Virus record (IMG/VR): IMGVR_UViG_2563366950_000001
Origin: a virus
Taxonomy: Duplodnaviria > Heunggongvirae > Uroviricota > Caudoviricetes
Length of the DNA stretch: 35,797 bases
Strand: one strand, 5' to 3'
Shown here: in pieces, positions 1,119 to 12,443 of the stretch
Numbering within the stretch: position 1 is the first letter of the stretch
Layout: each line of letters opens with the position of its first letter
The notes under the pieces: model-generated
The model's input: only the letters and a program-made list of their open reading frames with translations
Told to the model about the DNA's origin: nothing
Databases searched by the model: none
Made by a program: the position numbers and the translations under genes

Positions 1119-2090
1119 TTAATCGGAGGATTTTTCTGAATGAGAAGGTTTGATTTTTTCTTTCGCGGTAGACCATAGCGTTTGGAAACTTGGCGGATAA
1201 TCCATTTGATCAGAAAAAGCAGAATCTCCAGACATGTTCCAGTCCTTAAATACCTGAATAGCATCTTCTTTGGTCGCAGTCGAACCGTAAATTTGTAGGA
1301 AGACTTGACCAAACATTAAGGCATGCCTTCTGTCTTTTCTGCGAATGGACTCATGAGTATACTTTTTGGAGATACTCAGACAGATATAAGAAAGCCATGA
1401 TAAAATGGAAATTCCAATCAGGCCTCTGGTGAATAGATAAAATAGTTCAAATCCTTTAGCATTTATGAAATCAGTAACAAAATATAATGATATGAACGAA
1501 AAAATGACAGCGGAAAGACCGGCTATTGCACCAGCAATAGCCCATGTTTTGGCGAGTGAAATAAAGTGATCATCATCATCACCTAAATCATCTTTTACAC
1601 TATTGACATATTCGGGAATTTTTTGATCAATTCTCTCTTGATGTGCTCGACTGGTTAATTCGTTATTTGAAGCCTCTAACTCTTTTATCCTAGAAAAAGT
1701 TTGCTCAAGTAAAGATTCTTTTTCTATGTTTAAATTTTCTAACTCTTTGTTTTTTAATGATAATGAGGTGTTGCTTTCTTGCAAATCAGATAAGCGAGCT
1801 GTATAAAAACGTAATAAGTTTCTGAATTCATTATTATCTTTTTTTAACACGTTAAGTTGTAATTCAATATCTTCGTCGCTAAAGCCGACTCTATCTAAGT
1901 TTTGGAGATGGCGTCTATATTGATCCTTGAATTCTTCAATTTCACCATTTTTCAACAAGTTCTTTAGATATGTGCGTTCATGTTCAGGAAGTGGAATAGA
2001 ATCATCATGTATAAAATCAACGTATTTTTTAAACTCTGATTTGGTGATGCTGTTTTGTATTGTTTCTTTTTTGTGTTCTTTAGAGTCCAT
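1119..2090 (-). CDS. hypothetical cargo protein: N-terminal coiled-coil domain, acidic linker, two predicted transmembrane helices, short C-terminal tail
   Basis: 323-aa ORF, visibly AT-rich. Heptad-like, charged N-terminal half (KNKELENLNIEKESLLEQ...), then DDLGDDDDH, then hydrophobic stretches WAIAGAIAGLSAVIFSFISLYFV and LIGISILSWLSYICLSI. Same strand as the repressor, 12 bp downstream of its stop codon. I recognise no family. Confidence 0.7.
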   Translation of the reverse strand: MDSKEHKKETIQNSITKSEFKKYVDFIHDDSIPLPEHERTYLKNLLKNGEIEEFKDQYRRHLQNLDRVGFSDEDIELQLNVLKKDNNEFRNLLRFYTARLSDLQESNTSLSLKNKELENLNIEKESLLEQTFSRIKELEASNNELTSRAHQERIDQKIPEYVNSVKDDLGDDDDHFISLAKTWAIAGAIAGLSAVIFSFISLYFVTDFINAKGFELFYLFTRGLIGISILSWLSYICLSISKKYTHESIRRKDRRHALMFGQVFLQIYGSTATKEDAIQVFKDWNMSGDSAFSDQMDYPPSFQTLWSTAKEKIKPSHSEKSSD

Positions 2091-2102: not shown

Positions 2103-3029
2103 TTAAATGTTTTTAATGAAAGCACAGTGGCATTTTGCTAAAAGTTTTATATTCTCAATGTCACATATGAAATCAGCATGAGTAGATATTACTTTAACTT
2201 TTCCTACGGGTATGCGGACCAATGTTCTAATGTTTATTTTGCCTTCAATTTCTACTAACCATTCACCATCAGATATTTCTTTATATCCATAGTCTACTAC
2301 GAAAACATTTTCGCTATCGATCACAACCTGCGGATTTATAAGGTTGTGTGGTATTAAAGATTTATCAAAGTGGATATAGTCCGCATCTATTAACTTACCA
2401 TTTATTAGCTTATATGCTAATAACTTTGCTACATCAGTATTTACATCGTTCGATTTTGAGCCTTTTCCAGTAACGAGCCAATCTAGTGATATACCAGTTT
2501 CAAGTGCGCATTGGATAATCCAATCGGCTGGAAATGTATCCCTCATATAACGATTAGCTAGTGTGCTTTTTGAAATACCCAAATGATCAGCTAAAGCTTG
2601 TCTTGTCTTAAATCCATAGGCTGCAACGATTCGCTCTATTGCTGCTTTTCCGTTTTGATTTATAGTAACAGTGTTCTCATTTGGGTTTTTAGGTTCTCTG
2701 TTGAGGTGCCGAGATTCACTGTTACAATTGTCGTGACTTTTATCTGCAAAGCTTTCCATTTCGGTATCAGTACCAAATGCTAACCACTCAATCGATACAC
2801 CAGTTTCCATACTACAGATAACAACCCAGTCAGCTGGGAAAGTGTCACGCGCATACCTGTTCGCCATTGTGCTCTGTGATATCCCCAGATGATTGCAGAA
2901 TGCTTGGCGTGAAGAAAAACCATACGCTTCTAATATCCGCTCGATGACTGCTTGCCCTCCGCGATTCTGCATGATTAAGGATTTCTTTTTTTCGTCCACA
3001 TGGCGAAATGTGATTTCGTGTGTTGACAT
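2103..3029 (-). CDS. CI-type immunity repressor with tandemly duplicated N-terminal helix-turn-helix domain plus C-terminal domain
   Basis: 308-aa ORF divergent from the early operon. Two internally repeated ~60-aa segments (RILEAYGFSSRQAFCNHLGISQSTMANRYARDTFPADWVVICSMETGVSIEWL and RIVAAYGFKTRQALADHLGISKSTLANRYMRDTFPADWIIQCALETGISLDWL) resemble the 186 CI N-terminal HTH fold. Its position is that of the lysogeny repressor. Confidence 0.75.
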   Translation of the reverse strand: MSTHEITFRHVDEKKKSLIMQNRGGQAVIERILEAYGFSSRQAFCNHLGISQSTMANRYARDTFPADWVVICSMETGVSIEWLAFGTDTEMESFADKSHDNCNSESRHLNREPKNPNENTVTINQNGKAAIERIVAAYGFKTRQALADHLGISKSTLANRYMRDTFPADWIIQCALETGISLDWLVTGKGSKSNDVNTDVAKLLAYKLINGKLIDADYIHFDKSLIPHNLINPQVVIDSENVFVVDYGYKEISDGEWLVEIEGKINIRTLVRIPVGKVKVISTHADFICDIENIKLLAKCHCAFIKNI

Positions 3030-8340: not shown

Positions 8341-8529
8341 ATGCAGGACTATTTTTTGGAGTCTTTGAAGCTCCAGCGCATTGATTTTTTTCTTAAGCTT
8401 GTAGCGGCTAGTGAGTGTAGTGATGAAGAGAAGGGGCTGGCTTTGCAGTGGGTATCTGAACTGACTGATGAACTCATGGCAAAAATCAGAACCCACGAAT
8501 ACAACCGCTCAATGGATGTCATCAGTTGA
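8341..8529 (+). CDS. small hypothetical protein (first gene of the putative SOS-controlled operon)
   Basis: 62 aa from the ATG at 8341, which is preceded by AGGAGG; the longer ORF-track start at 8239 lacks an RBS and would overlap the LexA box. Confidence 0.4.
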   Translation: MQDYFLESLKLQRIDFFLKLVAASECSDEEKGLALQWVSELTDELMAKIRTHEYNRSMDVIS

Positions 8530-8539
8530 GGTGACTTTT

Positions 8540-8773
8540 ATGCGCATTGAAATAATGATCGATAAAGAGCAGAAGATTAGTCAGTCTACCCTGGACGCCC
8601 TTGAAAACGAGCTTTACCGCAATCTGCGCCCCCTGTATCCCAAAACGGTAATTCGTATCCGCAAAGGTAGCTCTAACGGTGTGGAACTGACCGGGCTGCA
8701 ACTGGACGAAGAAAGAAAACAAGTGATGAAAATTATGCAGAAGGTGTGGGAAGACGACAGCTGGTTACATTAG
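8540..8773 (+). CDS. DinI-family protein (Tum-like antirepressor module candidate)
   Basis: 77 aa from the ATG at 8540, after a GAGGTG RBS. Size and the acidic C-terminus (MKIMQKVWEDDSWLH) are typical of DinI-like proteins. Confidence 0.75.
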   Translation: MRIEIMIDKEQKISQSTLDALENELYRNLRPLYPKTVIRIRKGSSNGVELTGLQLDEERKQVMKIMQKVWEDDSWLH

Positions 8774-8993: not shown

Positions 8994-9194
8994 ATGTCTG
9001 AACTTCTGCGCAAAGTTCTCTCTGCACCAGGTAAGATTATGCAGGATGTCATCCGTCAGGATGTGCAACAGTCTGATAATAGTAAAATTATCACAGATGC
9101 TAATGGTGCGGCGACCTTAAACATGAACAATAAGCAGGTACGTGAATCAATGCGTGCCAGAATGGAAGAATTGGCTGCAAAACGACAAGGATGA
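8994..9194 (+). CDS. small hypothetical protein (66 aa), first gene of a two-gene cargo operon
   Basis: Strong RBS AAGGAGG 6 nt upstream of ATG. Stop at 9192-9194 lies 3 bp before the next start. Confidence 0.55.
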   Translation: MSELLRKVLSAPGKIMQDVIRQDVQQSDNSKIITDANGAATLNMNNKQVRESMRARMEELAAKRQG

Positions 9195-9197
9195 GGA

Positions 9198-9980
9198 ATG
9201 GGACCCTTAGTTATCATGGTCGTCCTGGTTTGCGGGTTCTGGTACACCGAAAATCATTACCAGTCCCGCATCAGGCAAGCAAGAAGTAATGGTTGGAATT
9301 CCTATTTTTATGTAGCTATGCATGGTTGTAAGTTTGCTATTCAGGGGTTTACTCTGATGGCTGTTACATTCGTTATCTTGCTAGTTATAAGCTCAGTTAT
9401 CAATGTTTTTGGTTATTTTTGGCCTAAGTTACATGTGGACTTTTATTCATGGCTCACAGACGTAAAGATAATGTCTTACCCATTGTTCTTTGTGTTGTCT
9501 ATGCTGCTTGCGGTGTTTATTGCTTATGACCAAGGTAACAATGCGCGAAGAGCAATAGAAAACGAAGAGATTCGTCAATCTGCATATCGCGAGATGGCAG
9601 CTCAAGATGGAATTGAGTCACTGTTAGTTCAGGCTATAGATGAAGGTAAGCTCATCTTTGTTACGCTAAAATCCAGAAAAGTTTACATTGGTTACGTAGC
9701 TGCTCCTCGGATGGAGCATCAGGAAACTCAGCATCTGGCTCTCATACCATACATCAGTGGTTATCGTGATAAAGATACGCTCAGATACCATGAGCAGCAT
9801 CGTTACTATGAACTTTACCTTAGTAAAAATATTACAGCAGACTCAACTCCACTGAACTTAAATCATTTTAGGCATGTAATCCCAATGGATCAGGTTGAGA
9901 GTATTTCAATATTTGATACTGAAACTTATAAATCTTTCGAAGATTTTTCTACGCCTGACCAGACCAAAGTCACTGCATGA
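9198..9980 (+). CDS. hypothetical membrane protein (3 predicted N-terminal TM helices plus ~150-aa soluble C-terminal domain)
   Basis: 260-aa ORF, AT-rich. Hydrophobic segments LVIMVVLVCGFWY, LMAVTFVILLVISSVINVFGYFW and LFFVLSMLLAVFIAY. Translationally coupled to the upstream small ORF. Confidence 0.7.
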   Translation: MGPLVIMVVLVCGFWYTENHYQSRIRQARSNGWNSYFYVAMHGCKFAIQGFTLMAVTFVILLVISSVINVFGYFWPKLHVDFYSWLTDVKIMSYPLFFVLSMLLAVFIAYDQGNNARRAIENEEIRQSAYREMAAQDGIESLLVQAIDEGKLIFVTLKSRKVYIGYVAAPRMEHQETQHLALIPYISGYRDKDTLRYHEQHRYYELYLSKNITADSTPLNLNHFRHVIPMDQVESISIFDTETYKSFEDFSTPDQTKVTA

Positions 9981-10097: not shown

Positions 10098-10116
10098 GGC
10101 GTGGCGGGGATACGAG
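10098..10116. other. probable cos site (cohesive-end region) of the P2/186-type genome
   Basis: GGCGTGGCGGGGATACGAG followed by GCGCGCGC resembles the 19-nt cohesive ends I recall for P2 (GGCGAGGCGGGGAAAGCAC) and 186. It lies in a non-coding gap upstream of the portal end of the late region. Confidence 0.4.
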
Positions 10117-10199
10117 CGCGCGCAACTCGAGATAGTGTGATACTTATCTGAGAAATCTTAACAAGGTTCAATACAATACCCTTTCAAAAAAAGGGGAGT

Positions 10200-11354
10200 G
10201 TGATGTTTGTAAAAAATAACTTTAATACAAATAATTTCGATGCGGAATTAGTTGAAGCGATTGGTAATAGGCTGGAAAACAACCAATTTTCGGATGCAAT
10301 ACTTGCAGGAACCAAATATCTAACAACTTTGCTGCGTGAAAAAGGGCAATGTGAAGGGGATGGGGCTCAGCTTGTTGGTACTGTTTTGGGTGGACAATCA
10401 CCTAGAATCCAAATTAATAGTCTTCAATCTGTATCAGAGCAGGACGAACAGCGCGGATTTGAAGCACTATTAAGAGGCTACTATCAGTGTATAAGAAATC
10501 CAAGGACACATGACAATTTCCCTGATACAGAAGATTCCTGCATGAGAATATTGATCATGTTGGATACTTTTATTAAGTATTTAAAAAGAGATGTTGCTGA
10601 GTTCGATTACACAGCAATTCTTGAAAGAATTTATGAGGTTCACTTTGTAAATAATTCTGATTATGCAGAAGCTTTAATATCACAAATTCCAGAAAAAAAA
10701 CTACTGGATTTTTTCCAAAGTTTAATTTCTCGCTTTAATGAAAGGCCAACCAAGGAAATTGATTCTATATTCAAAGCAATAAACCAACGCTTTTCAGGAG
10801 AGGAAGAAAAAGCCGCAATGCGGTTGCTAGGTGATGAGTTACGCAAGGCTAGCAATAATGTTGAGTTTGCTAATGTATTTAGAATAATTAAGCCGAGCGC
10901 ATGGAGAAATCTTCCTGATGATGTTTTAATTAGAATGGAAAATATAATCATCGAAGAGTGCAAAAAAGGATATTTGGATTTCTATTCTGATGCGACCAAA
11001 GGAGCTATAGGAACATGGGGTAATACATTTGGTAGCAAATTTAAAAGAAGAGGTGATCTTGGTGATGCTTTAATTGGATTGTTATATGATAGTTGGTATA
11101 CGCAAAATTATGTTGCGAAATATTACGTTTTTTCAATCCCTTCTATCATTACTGATGATGTGAAAGTTAAGGAGTTAGCTGATGCTTTAGCTTATGCCAC
11201 CATTGTAAATGGTGCTAAGCTTTTACGAACAAAATTGATTGATGCATGTAAAAATTATCCTGATAAGTTGAAAGAGCATCTTAGGGATGCTGTTCAGCAA
11301 CGGATGGATAGTGATAAAAAATATGCGGAAGAATTATTAGGTCAAATAAGCTGA
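10200..11354 (+). CDS. hypothetical protein with HEPN-like N-terminal domain (Rx4H motif); candidate abortive-infection RNase
   Basis: 384-aa ORF, strongly AT-rich, GGGGAG RBS. N-terminal domain contains CIRNPRTHDNFPD (Rx4H), which I associate with HEPN/TIGR02391-like families. C-terminal ~250 aa unrecognised. Confidence 0.7.
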   Translation: MMFVKNNFNTNNFDAELVEAIGNRLENNQFSDAILAGTKYLTTLLREKGQCEGDGAQLVGTVLGGQSPRIQINSLQSVSEQDEQRGFEALLRGYYQCIRNPRTHDNFPDTEDSCMRILIMLDTFIKYLKRDVAEFDYTAILERIYEVHFVNNSDYAEALISQIPEKKLLDFFQSLISRFNERPTKEIDSIFKAINQRFSGEEEKAAMRLLGDELRKASNNVEFANVFRIIKPSAWRNLPDDVLIRMENIIIEECKKGYLDFYSDATKGAIGTWGNTFGSKFKRRGDLGDALIGLLYDSWYTQNYVAKYYVFSIPSIITDDVKVKELADALAYATIVNGAKLLRTKLIDACKNYPDKLKEHLRDAVQQRMDSDKKYAEELLGQIS

Positions 11355-11405
11355 TTATTATTTGCACCTAATCTCACTTTCGATGTTAGGTGCATTTCTA
11401 TATGC

Positions 11406-12443
11406 CTAATCTAATTCATATGAGGTAAATTTAACCAGTTCTTCATTAAGTCCAATCCATGAGTTAATTTCAGATATTCTGTGTTGTAGCGGAATTAACT
11501 CATTCCTGACAAAAACCTTACTAGCCTTTTCAACATCCCCAAACCCGCCAACATTACTAGGCATAATCCCCATCATCTGCGGCGGTACACGGTGCGCTGC
11601 CATCATGTCATCCCGGCTCACGTTCTTGATGTTCAGAAACTCATCTTTTGCCGCCACCTCTGACAGCGGGATGATCTGAATCCCGTCTTTCTTTCCGTTG
11701 GGTGAGTACATAAACAAGTTGCGGAAGTTGCCCGGCCCTTTGGCGCTTTTCATCGCATTGCGGAGGTTGTTCACATCCTCCTGGTTCTGCGCGGCATCGG
11801 TCATGTACATGATGAAGCCTGCATGACTACCGTTAATGTAATATTTGCGGCGGAACAGCGTGGCGGACTCGTTGAGCAAAGCGGATGGGATGGCAGAAAG
11901 ATAGCCGGGCAGGCCGTAGATCTCCTGATTAATATCTGGTTCCATCAGATGAAAAATGCTGCCTTTCGTGAACTGATACGGCTGGGTTGTCATACCGTAT
12001 TGCACAAACCAGTAGGTATCCAGGTCTAACCCGCGTCGGGTATATTTTGCCAGGGCAGGCTCAAGGGCGATAACTTCACCGAAGCGGTTCGTGCGTTTCT
12101 CCAGGTAGGCGTTACCAAATACCAGGTAGTCCTGCACAAAACGTGAAAAAGCCTGCTGGCTGAGCAGCGGGTGAGGGATATAGGTACTGGTCAGAATGTT
12201 GCACTTTACTGCAATCGGGGAACTGTGATGCACGGCAGCGCGGAAGGTGCGCGCCAGTCCGTCAAAGCTGACGGGCGGCTCATACCAACGGTCCATCTGT
12301 ACGCATTCCACATAGTCCAGTAATTCTCGGCGGTCCAGAACAGGAACGGGATCGCCGAAGCTGAATGCTTCGGCTGTAGTTTGACTTTTAAGCTGGATCT
12401 GATTCGTCGCCGCAGCGCGGTTCTTCTTACTCTTTCCCATCAA
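11406..12443 (-). CDS. Q: portal protein gpQ
   Basis: 345 aa, the same size and position as P2 Q; overlaps the terminase gene start (Q-P operon). Confidence 0.93.
   Translation of the reverse strand: MMGKSKKNRAAATNQIQLKSQTTAEAFSFGDPVPVLDRRELLDYVECVQMDRWYEPPVSFDGLARTFRAAVHHSSPIAVKCNILTSTYIPHPLLSQQAFSRFVQDYLVFGNAYLEKRTNRFGEVIALEPALAKYTRRGLDLDTYWFVQYGMTTQPYQFTKGSIFHLMEPDINQEIYGLPGYLSAIPSALLNESATLFRRKYYINGSHAGFIMYMTDAAQNQEDVNNLRNAMKSAKGPGNFRNLFMYSPNGKKDGIQIIPLSEVAAKDEFLNIKNVSRDDMMAAHRVPPQMMGIMPSNVGGFGDVEKASKVFVRNELIPLQHRISEINSWIGLNEELVKFTSYELD

What the first reader, a model, noticed from the sequence alone, without database searches (positions are those of the whole stretch)
10200..11354. AT-rich HEPN-like gene between the probable cos site and the portal gene: candidate abortive-infection toxin
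In P2, as far as I recall, only a short non-coding stretch separates cos from the end of Q. Here a 1.15-kb, strongly AT-rich gene occupies that space. Its N-terminal domain carries an Rx4H motif (RNPRTH) in what looks like a helical context, the hallmark of HEPN RNases found in many Abi, toxin-antitoxin and CRISPR-accessory proteins. The C-terminal ~250 aa match nothing I recognise. No adjacent antitoxin-like gene is evident, so regulation may be intramolecular or in trans.
Basis: partly seen in the sequence, partly recalled or inferred. Interest (0 to 1): 0.78.

Follow-up and report, generated by a model that had tools for sequence, protein, structure and literature searches.

The report
Prophage HEPN RNase with swappable sensor
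A P2-like prophage of E. coli CFT073 carries, in its known defence-gene hotspot next to cos, an untested one-gene candidate anti-phage protein: a HEPN RNase domain fused to an unnamed helical-repeat domain that other bacteria fuse to kinases or a caspase-like protease.

Summary
An AT-rich ORF (ATG 10203 to stop 11354, 383 aa; 35% GC against 50-57% for the backbone) lies between a 186-type cos site (10098-10116) and the portal gene. P2 and 186 have only 167-176 bp there. The window is the E. coli CFT073 P2/186-like prophage, and the protein is WP_000497736.

The C-terminal 250 aa form an alpha-solenoid with no Pfam family. A profile finds it in 518 protein clusters, fused mostly to Ymh-HEPN but also to protein kinases and once to a CHAT protease. 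That pattern suggests a sensor or regulatory module.

The gene is accessory. It occupies the slot in 51 of about 1,270 E. coli genomes with a related portal gene. It has no conserved partner and occurs elsewhere in a lambdoid prophage, in defence islands and as a single-gene integron cassette.

The slot is the published P2 defence hotspot, and this locus is listed there but was not among the cloned systems. Most likely it is a single-chain abortive-infection RNase. Function is untested. I rate it a new variant of a known kind.

The parts
10098..10116 (.). cos-like cohesive-end site (GGCGTGGCGGGGATACGAG; homology with 186/P2 runs to 10123)
   Evidence: 26-nt match to nt 1-26 of 186 and P2 (81% and 77% identity; first 12 nt identical to 186). 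annotate nt 1-19 there as cos.
10124..11475 (.). AT-rich replaced module (~1.35 kb) with no homology to the P2/186 cos-portal interval; it runs into the last ~70 nt of the portal gene
   Evidence: homology with P2/186 stops at 10123 and resumes at 11476 (P2) or 11569 (186). GC 35% for the module and 28.6% for 11406-11475.
10148..10177 (+). promoter-like site (CTGAGA-18-TACAAT) upstream of the gene; weak evidence
   Evidence: 9 of 12 consensus match. The scan found no more such sites in the region than in shuffled sequence, so this is only suggestive.
10193..10198 (+). Shine-Dalgarno-like GGGGAG, 4 nt before ATG 10203
   Evidence: Read directly from the sequence.
10203..11354 (+). CDS, 383 aa (WP_000497736, 'TIGR02391 family protein'): Ymh-HEPN plus alpha-solenoid
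   Evidence: It is 100% identical in CFT073; 34 full-length homologues were found at 35-100% identity (one of them a partial copy).
10236..10580 (+). HEPN domain of the Ymh family (residues 12-126)
10494..10511 (+). R-x4-H catalytic motif RNPRTH (R98...H103)
   Evidence: One search gives the coordinates. R98, N99, R101 and H103 are invariant in 32 sequences. R98 and H103 are both kept in 97 of 99 wider family members.
10590..11351 (+). C-terminal alpha-solenoid domain (residues 130-383) with no Pfam, NCBIfam or PHROG family; motifs GTWGNTFG, WYTQNY, LAYA..N.A, NYP
11363..11394 (+). stem-loop between the gene's stop and the portal stop, followed by TTTCTAT; terminator-like
   Evidence: -16.4 kcal/mol, z -3.8 against shuffles. 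It occupies the position of tQ/tW in P2/186.

Best explanation
This is a self-contained, one-gene anti-phage defence module carried as cargo by the prophage. It sits on the portal side of cos, inside the known P2 gpA-gpQ defence hotspot. The 383-aa cytoplasmic protein has two parts. The effector is an N-terminal HEPN domain of the Ymh family; by analogy with other HEPN proteins this is inferred to be a metal-independent endoribonuclease that needs two R-x4-H motifs, and therefore a dimer. The second part is a C-terminal alpha-solenoid of about 250 aa, inferred to be the sensor or regulatory module. Proposed mechanism, all inferred: in the lysogen the HEPN domain is kept inactive, either monomeric or occluded by the solenoid. 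When a competing phage infects, a phage product binds the solenoid, allowing HEPN dimerisation or exposure. RNA (tRNA, mRNA or rRNA) is cleaved, translation stops, and the infection aborts at the cost of the cell. Shown here: the domain identities, the conserved catalytic motif, the accessory and mobile nature of the gene, the lack of a partner gene, the defence-associated contexts, and the reuse of the C-domain with other enzymatic heads.
For: HEPN identity rests. The catalytic motif is invariant in 32 close homologues and kept in 97 of 99 wider ones. Ymh is classed as HEPN with an intact R-x4-H in PMC3710099. The location is the published P2 defence hotspot (PMC9122126; PMC9519451), and the CFT073 locus with this protein is row 1 of Table S5A. 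The gene is accessory: 51-52 of 5,426 genomes carry it, against 1,268 with a related portal gene; other cargo, including a DUF4145 HEPN gene, occupies the same slot; P2 and 186 have nothing there. Foreign composition is shown. The module is autonomous: no neighbour is conserved across six contexts, a phage carries the same gene without the upstream 66/260-aa pair, and one homologue is flanked by attC-like sites. Homologues sit beside Septu PtuA/PtuB and PDC-M36A, and among HamC-like, PDC-M57B, BilD and DUF4145 genes, or in a lambdoid prophage accessory position. There is precedent: PD-lambda-3, a validated Abi system, includes an AbiJ_NTD3+Ymh protein. The sensor role of the C-domain is supported by its fusion to three unrelated catalytic heads: 99 HEPN, 19 kinase and 1 CHAT among the 150 best hits, with the kinase catalytic-loop motif intact in 17 of 19.
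Confidence: 0.6

Rival explanations
1. It acts as direct, non-suicidal defence or exclusion. The alpha-solenoid is an RNA-binding domain (PUF/TOG/MIF4G-like) that guides the HEPN RNase to particular phage transcripts or RNAs, blocking the invader without killing the host.
Against: The same C-domain is fused to protein kinases and a CHAT protease, which do not act on RNA. Both domains are acidic (pI 4.95 and 5.46), which is unusual for an RNA-binding surface. The one validated system with a Ymh-HEPN component, PD-lambda-3, behaves as Abi.
Confidence: 0.15
2. It is a toxin of an addiction or toxin-antitoxin type module that stabilises the prophage. Its antidote would be supplied in trans, by an unrecognised small gene or RNA or by the C-domain itself, and it would have no role against other phages.
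For: HEPN domains are toxins in HEPN-MNT and RnlA-type TA systems (PMC3710099). The gene sits on a mobile element.
Against: There is no MNT or other conserved neighbour. There is no room for a second gene between cos and the start (76 bp) or between the stop and the portal gene (51 bp). No ToxI-like repeats are present. The gene travels as a single-gene integron cassette. It sits in defence islands rather than only on plasmids or prophages.
Confidence: 0.1
3. It benefits the phage in another way, through counter-defence or RNA processing. For example, it might degrade host defence RNAs or cyclic-oligonucleotide signals, or process phage transcripts near the late operon.
For: Some HEPN proteins degrade cyclic oligoadenylate signals (general knowledge of Csm6/Csx1, not tested here). 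The gene is phage-borne and adjacent to the packaging genes.
Against: Most P2-like prophages lack it. Homologues occur in chromosomal defence islands and integrons away from any phage. There is no CARF/SAVED-type signal-binding domain.
Confidence: 0.08
4. It is inert or decaying cargo, an H-NS-silenced AT-rich passenger with no current function.
For: The AT content is very high. The promoter evidence is weak. There are no expression data.
Against: The ORF is intact and at least 99% identical in 52 genomes. Length is conserved at about 383 aa across proteobacterial classes at 35-55% identity, with 41 invariant positions including the catalytic motif. The wider family has 518 clusters.
Confidence: 0.05

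Closest known systems
PD-lambda-3 (Vassallo et al. 2022, PMC9519451), a validated abortive-infection system from E. coli ECOR28
   Same: Its B protein carries a Hypoth_Ymh HEPN domain. The window protein's residues 9-126 match the PADLOC PD-Lambda-3_B model at E 2.4e-14. It behaves as Abi. It also comes from the E. coli accessory genome.
   Different: PD-lambda-3 is multi-gene ('Nuclease, HEPN'; three protein accessions are listed). In its B protein the Ymh domain is C-terminal, after an AbiJ_NTD3 domain. Here the gene is single, Ymh is N-terminal, and the partner domain is an unrelated alpha-solenoid. No nuclease gene is adjacent.
Ymh (PF09509/TIGR02391) family of the HEPN superfamily (Anantharaman et al. 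2013, PMC3710099)
   Same: The sequence is a member above curated cut-offs, with a conserved R-x4-H and a helical-bundle fold.
   Different: The architectures described for Ymh are solo proteins and fusions to paraMORC, AbiJ-NTD1/2 and AbiTii. A C-terminal alpha-solenoid fusion is not among them.
Single-chain fused toxin-sensor defence proteins such as CapRel(SJ46) (recalled from general knowledge; not re-read here)
   Same: Works like: one polypeptide with an N-terminal toxic enzyme and a C-terminal domain proposed to autoinhibit and to sense a phage product. It is prophage-borne with no separate antitoxin.
   Different: There is no homology: the effector is a HEPN RNase, not a RelA/SpoT-type pyrophosphokinase. 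Neither autoinhibition nor a trigger is demonstrated here.
Avs/STAND-type and other modular sensors with swappable effectors
   Same: A shared repeat-type putative sensor domain is combined with alternative effector heads (RNase, kinase, protease).
   Different: No NTPase or STAND domain is present. The protein is much smaller (383 aa), and the solenoid is not a detectable TPR.
Other single-gene HEPN cargo in P2/P4 hotspots (DUF4145 protein in the same slot; 'Putative HEPN' pFR103; HEPN-TPR pFR83; HEPN_Apea)
   Same: Same type of hotspot, same effector superfamily and a single-gene layout.
   Different: They belong to different HEPN families and have different partner domains. pFR103 from strain S88 is an unrelated sequence.

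Membership tests
HEPN superfamily, Ymh family (PF09509 / TIGR02391) | Sequence match to the family profile above the curated cut-off | tested here: met
   PF09509 scores 82.4 bits against a cut-off of 25. TIGR02391 scores 44.8 against 39.45.
HEPN superfamily, Ymh family (PF09509 / TIGR02391) | Conserved R-x4-6-H motif | tested here: met
   RNPRTH lies at residues 98-103. R98, N99, R101 and H103 are invariant in 32 homologues. R98 and H103 are both kept in 97 of 99 wider members.
HEPN superfamily, Ymh family (PF09509 / TIGR02391) | Alpha-helical bundle fold superposable on solved HEPN domains | tested here: met
HEPN superfamily, Ymh family (PF09509 / TIGR02391) | Metal-independent endoribonuclease activity through a dimeric composite active site | not testable with these tools
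   This needs biochemistry or multimer modelling; only single-chain prediction was available.
Anti-phage defence / abortive-infection system | Located in defence hotspots or islands, with patchy, horizontally transferred distribution | tested here: met
   It lies in the P2 gpA-gpQ hotspot. It is present in 51 of about 1,270 genomes with a related portal gene. Homologues sit beside Septu, PDC-M36A, HamC-like, PDC-M57B and BilD genes. GC is 35% against 50-57% for the backbone.
Anti-phage defence / abortive-infection system | Confers resistance to phage, with death or arrest of the infected cell | not testable with these tools
   No experimental report was found.
PD-lambda-3 system | Multi-gene operon with a nuclease component and an AbiJ_NTD3+Ymh B protein | tested here: not met
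   Only the Ymh domain matches (profile positions 138-258 of 270). No AbiJ_NTD domain and no adjacent nuclease gene are present.
HEPN-MNT type II toxin-antitoxin | Adjacent minimal nucleotidyltransferase (MNT) antitoxin gene | tested here: not met
   There is no such neighbour in the window or in six homologue loci.
Short pAgo-associated HEPN (Aga_HEPN) | Fusion to or operon with a short prokaryotic Argonaute or APAZ domain | tested here: not met
   The PADLOC hit covers the HEPN part only (E 2e-9). No pAgo/APAZ domain or neighbour is present.
HEAT/ARM-type alpha-solenoid repeat proteins (C-terminal domain) | Stacked helical-hairpin repeats superposable on HEAT/ARM structures | tested here: inconclusive

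The most novel reading that the evidence does not exclude
The C-terminal 250-aa alpha-solenoid is a previously unnamed, widespread immune sensor domain (518 clusters at 50% identity). It plugs into at least three unrelated effector heads: Ymh-HEPN RNase, a minimal RIO/Bud32-like protein kinase, and a CHAT caspase-like protease. This would define a new family of small, NTPase-less, single-chain phage sensors. The CFT073 prophage gene would be its experimentally tractable E. coli representative, and its phage trigger could be found by escaper genetics.
Probability: 0.35. Interest if true: 0.65.

Novelty: new variant of a known kind. Interest (0 to 1): 0.47.

Why it matters
If confirmed, it would add a one-gene system to the E. 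coli defence repertoire, from a uropathogen's prophage and from a hotspot where many cargo genes remain unexplained. More usefully, it would give a function to a domain absent from Pfam and PHROGs that is shared by RNase, kinase and protease fusions. That makes it a natural system for asking how one sensor fold couples to different effectors without an NTPase switch. It would also be a convenient entry point to the biochemistry of the Ymh branch of HEPN, for which I found no substrate or activation mechanism in the literature searched. The gene is small and works in E. coli, so the experiments are straightforward.

Tried and rejected
1. Conserved partner or antitoxin: all-against-all BLASTP of flanking proteins from six loci found only one related pair, the window 260-aa and Klebsiella 280-aa proteins (34% identity). 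That pair is absent from phage vB_EcoM-813R9, so it is a separate module. No tandem repeats suggest an RNA antitoxin.

2. Solved relatives by sequence: none. Foldseek against the PDB found nothing significant.

3. PHROGs: no family for the C-domain and only a marginal hit for the HEPN part.

4. Already tested? Rousset's pFR103 'Putative HEPN' from a P2 hotspot is a different protein. Searches for the accession, TIGR02391, Hypoth_Ymh and HEPN plus HEAT repeat found no experimental paper. The Gifsy-1 HEPN paper concerns another protein.

5. Exact P2 cos search failed; the site is of the 186 type and diverges after 12 nt.

6. The Pfam census on the 150-sequence alignment exceeded the size limit, so I replaced it with local HMMs.

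7. Context for the kinase variant and a 'C-domain only' protein was uninformative: the contigs are short, and the latter is probably a contig-end fragment. The 31 'C-domain only' hits should therefore not be read as a real stand-alone architecture.

8. The promoter scan is no better than shuffled sequence, so the promoter is only a suggestion.

Full report
**1. What is there**

The window is the P2/186-like prophage of E. coli CFT073. It matches NC_004431 at 100% identity and lies between rcdA and ybjL/ybjM.

The ORF listed at 10200-11354 (+) is real. Its likely start is ATG 10203, giving 383 aa. RefSeq uses that start for WP_000497736, a GGGGAG Shine-Dalgarno sequence lies at 10193-10198, and all homologues begin M-F/Y-x-K.

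The gene is strongly AT-rich. Its GC is 35.1% and GC3 is 26%. The portal gene is 50% (GC3 60%), and the terminase, capsid and gpA genes are 53-57%.

Upstream, at 10098-10123, lies GGCGTGGCGGGGATACGAG followed by CGCGCGC. It matches nt 1-26 of 186 and P2, annotated there as cos.

In P2 the distance from cosL to the Q stop is 167 bp, and in 186 it is 176 bp. Both intervals contain only a terminator. Here the distance is 1,289 bp.

Homology with P2/186 is lost from 10124 until 11476-11569, inside the portal gene. The last ~70 nt of the portal gene are themselves 28.6% GC. So a foreign module of about 1.35 kb has replaced the short cos-Q spacer, and one recombination junction lies inside the portal gene's 3' end.

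A weak promoter-like site (10148-10177) precedes the gene. A stable stem-loop (11363-11394; -16.4 kcal/mol, z -3.8) followed by TTTCTAT separates it from the convergent portal gene. This is consistent with an autonomous cargo gene, although the promoter call is no better than chance.

**2. The N-terminal domain is HEPN**

- Residues 12-126 match Pfam PF09509 Hypoth_Ymh (E 2.9e-23, 82 bits, cut-off 25) and NCBIfam TIGR02391 (44.8 bits, cut-off 39.45).
- Anantharaman et al. 2013 classify Ymh as a HEPN family with a conserved R-x4-H (PMC3710099).
- RNPRTH lies at residues 98-103 (nt 10494-10511).
- In 32 full-length homologues, R98, N99, R101 and H103 are invariant.
- In 99 more distant HEPN-bearing relatives, R98 and H103 are both kept in 97, and R101 in all 99.
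- An AlphaFold2 model built on the family alignment is confident (mean pLDDT 91, no segment below 50) and all-helical.
- PADLOC matches the same residues to the Ymh part of PD-Lambda-3_B (E 2.4e-14) and to pAgo-associated HEPN (E 2e-9).

**3. The C-terminal domain**

Residues 130-383 hit no Pfam, NCBIfam, PHROG or PADLOC family. No solved structure matches by sequence.

The domain carries strongly conserved motifs: DPxFV..YA, W234..L..R244-x-E246, GTWGNTFG, WYTQNY, LAYA..N.A and NYP.

A profile of this domain alone, searched against 1.84 billion representative proteins, finds 518 clusters at E <= 1e-3 and 403 at E <= 1e-10. Among the best 150:

| N-terminal part | Count |
|---|---|
| Ymh-HEPN | 99 |
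| Protein kinase domain | 19 |
| CHAT caspase-like protease | 1 |
| None, or a short N-terminus | 31 |

At least one of the 31 is a contig-end fragment, so these should not be read as a stand-alone architecture.

Homology of the C-domain across the three architectures is visible by plain BLASTP: 23-32% identity, E 1e-17 to 1e-35, with the motifs retained.

The kinase heads look catalytically competent. One is canonical, with HRDLKPSN and DFG motifs. Most of the others are minimal, RIO/Bud32-like in my reading: 16 keep an H[GNS]D[LF]HxxN catalytic loop, and most also show an A[VIL]K beta3 lysine motif.

One helical module joined to three unrelated enzymatic heads is the pattern expected of a sensor or regulatory domain with swappable effectors. 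This is an inference from architecture.

**4. Accessory, mobile and partner-less**

The gene is at least 99% identical in 52 of 5,426 complete E. coli genomes, always on the chromosome. A related portal gene is present in 1,268 genomes, but only 51 have the contiguous cos-gene-portal arrangement.

In other prophages the same sub-slot holds different cargo:
- a DUF4145 protein, another HEPN family;
- two hypothetical genes;
- three hypothetical genes.

Only 2 of 50,697 phage records carry the gene. One of them, vB_EcoM-813R9, has it without the upstream 66-aa and 260-aa ORFs.

A Klebsiella P2-like prophage has a 92%-identical copy in the same slot. Its upstream 280-aa gene is only 34% identical to the window's 260-aa gene, so the two modules have separate histories.

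Full-length homologues (35-55% identity, almost all 383 aa) occur in Marinomonas, Vibrio, Aeromonas, Sulfurovum, Desulfovibrio and metagenomes. Their contexts are:
- an oppositely oriented insert in a lambdoid prophage;
- a position next to a complete Septu system (PtuA/PtuB) and a PDC-M36A candidate;
- an island with DUF4145, HamC-like, PDC-M57B, ImmA/IrrE-type and BilD genes;
- a one-directional gene array whose spacers have the attC signature, in which the homologue forms a single-gene cassette.

No flanking protein is shared between these contexts, and no ToxI-like repeats flank the gene.

**5. Relation to what is known**

The gpA-gpQ interval of P2-like phages is a published hotspot of anti-phage systems (Rousset et al. 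2022, PMC9122126; Vassallo et al. 2022, PMC9519451). The CFT073 locus, including Hypoth_Ymh WP_000497736, is the first row of Rousset's Table S5A.

It is not among the systems they cloned, as far as I read Table S2. Their 'Putative HEPN' pFR103 is an unrelated protein.

PD-lambda-3 is a validated system later used as an abortive-infection control. It contains an AbiJ_NTD3+Ymh protein. This is experimental precedent for Ymh-HEPN in Abi, but the architecture and gene content differ, so the window gene is not a PD-lambda-3 member.

I found no paper mentioning this protein, or a Ymh-solenoid architecture, in the library searched.

**6. Most likely mechanism**

Confidence is about 0.6 that this is an anti-phage defence gene of this general type. 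It would be a single-chain defence protein.

The HEPN head is inferred to be an RNase that needs dimerisation to form its active site; this follows from general HEPN knowledge (PMC3710099). The solenoid is inferred to hold it inactive until it binds a phage product. RNA cleavage then halts translation and aborts the infection.

Rivals:
- RNA-guided direct immunity, with the solenoid as an RNA-binding domain (0.15). The kinase and CHAT fusions and the acidic pI argue against it.
- A prophage-addiction toxin (0.10).
- A counter-defence or RNA-processing role for the phage (0.08).
- Inert cargo (0.05).

**7. Verdict**

The HEPN domain was already annotated in RefSeq, and the slot is a known hotspot, so the core finding is not surprising to a specialist.

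New here is that the unplaced C-terminal region is a widespread, unnamed alpha-solenoid module shared by RNase, kinase and protease fusions. The gene also behaves as a self-sufficient single-gene cassette. I rate it a new variant of a known kind, with interest about 0.47.

Noticed in passing
window 8994-9980 (+): A 66-aa ORF and a 260-aa ORF with a hydrophobic N-terminal region lie on the other (gpA) side of cos. They match phrog_22451 and phrog_3630, both of unknown function. A similar pair (72 aa + 280 aa) occupies the same place in a Klebsiella P2-like prophage, where the 280-aa protein is 34% identical to the window's 260-aa protein. The pair is absent from phage vB_EcoM-813R9. It is a second, independent hotspot cargo and a possible membrane-acting defence candidate.
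   Followed up: partly
window 11406-11475 (-): The last ~70 nt of the portal gene are 28.6% GC and have lost homology with P2/186. The cargo-swap junction therefore lies inside the portal gene, and each cargo module may bring its own portal C-terminal tail.
   Followed up: partly
window 24551-25582 (-): A 343-aa Acyl_transf_3 acyltransferase (E 2.7e-40) lies on the opposite strand between the 158-aa ORF at 24091-24567 and the 390-aa ORF at 25796-26968. By position these look like the tail-fibre assembly and sheath genes, which would make this the P2 Z/fun slot, called defence hotspot #2 by Vassallo et al. It is probably a surface-polysaccharide-modifying lysogenic-conversion gene. It has no PADLOC hit.
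   Followed up: partly
window 1119-2090 (-): A 323-aa ORF between the integrase and the CI repressor has only a sub-threshold DUF2207_C match (23.7 bits against a cut-off of 33). It is accessory cargo of unknown function in a minor P2 hotspot.
   Followed up: no
window 2103-3029 (-): The CI repressor ORF gives two separate matches to the Phage_CI_repr HTH domain plus Phage_CI_C. This suggests a tandem-HTH repressor or an over-long mechanical ORF; RefSeq annotates 870 nt.
   Followed up: no
L009 1-9100 (Logan SRR33443037 contig): This is a one-directional gene array whose ~100-130 bp spacers start with [A/C]TAACAA(A), end with GCGTTA and fold into long imperfect hairpins. That is an attC-like integron cassette array. 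It carries the Ymh-solenoid homologue as one cassette, next to DUF6615, ankyrin, esterase and cupin cassettes.
   Followed up: partly
L013 1767-3366 (E. coli CUVET24-IPD24): The same cos-portal slot holds a 232-aa DUF4145 (HEPN-family) gene. Just upstream, a 203-aa ORF is annotated 'valyl-tRNA synthetase', far too short for the enzyme. This is either an odd annotation or a tRNA-synthetase-derived fragment in a defence hotspot.
   Followed up: no
L005 143-7675 (Sulfurovum MAG): A complete Septu system (PtuA 678 aa, PtuB 347 aa), UmuC-like and SRAP genes, and a PDC-M36A/DUF8370 protein lie directly upstream of the Ymh-solenoid homologue. This looks like a compact defence island.
   Followed up: partly
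window 8468-8773 (+): A DinI-family protein (PF06183, E 6.8e-23) lies just before the cargo region. It may correspond to the DinI-like Tum antirepressor of phage 186 (recalled from memory, not checked here), which would suggest SOS-inducible control.
   Followed up: no
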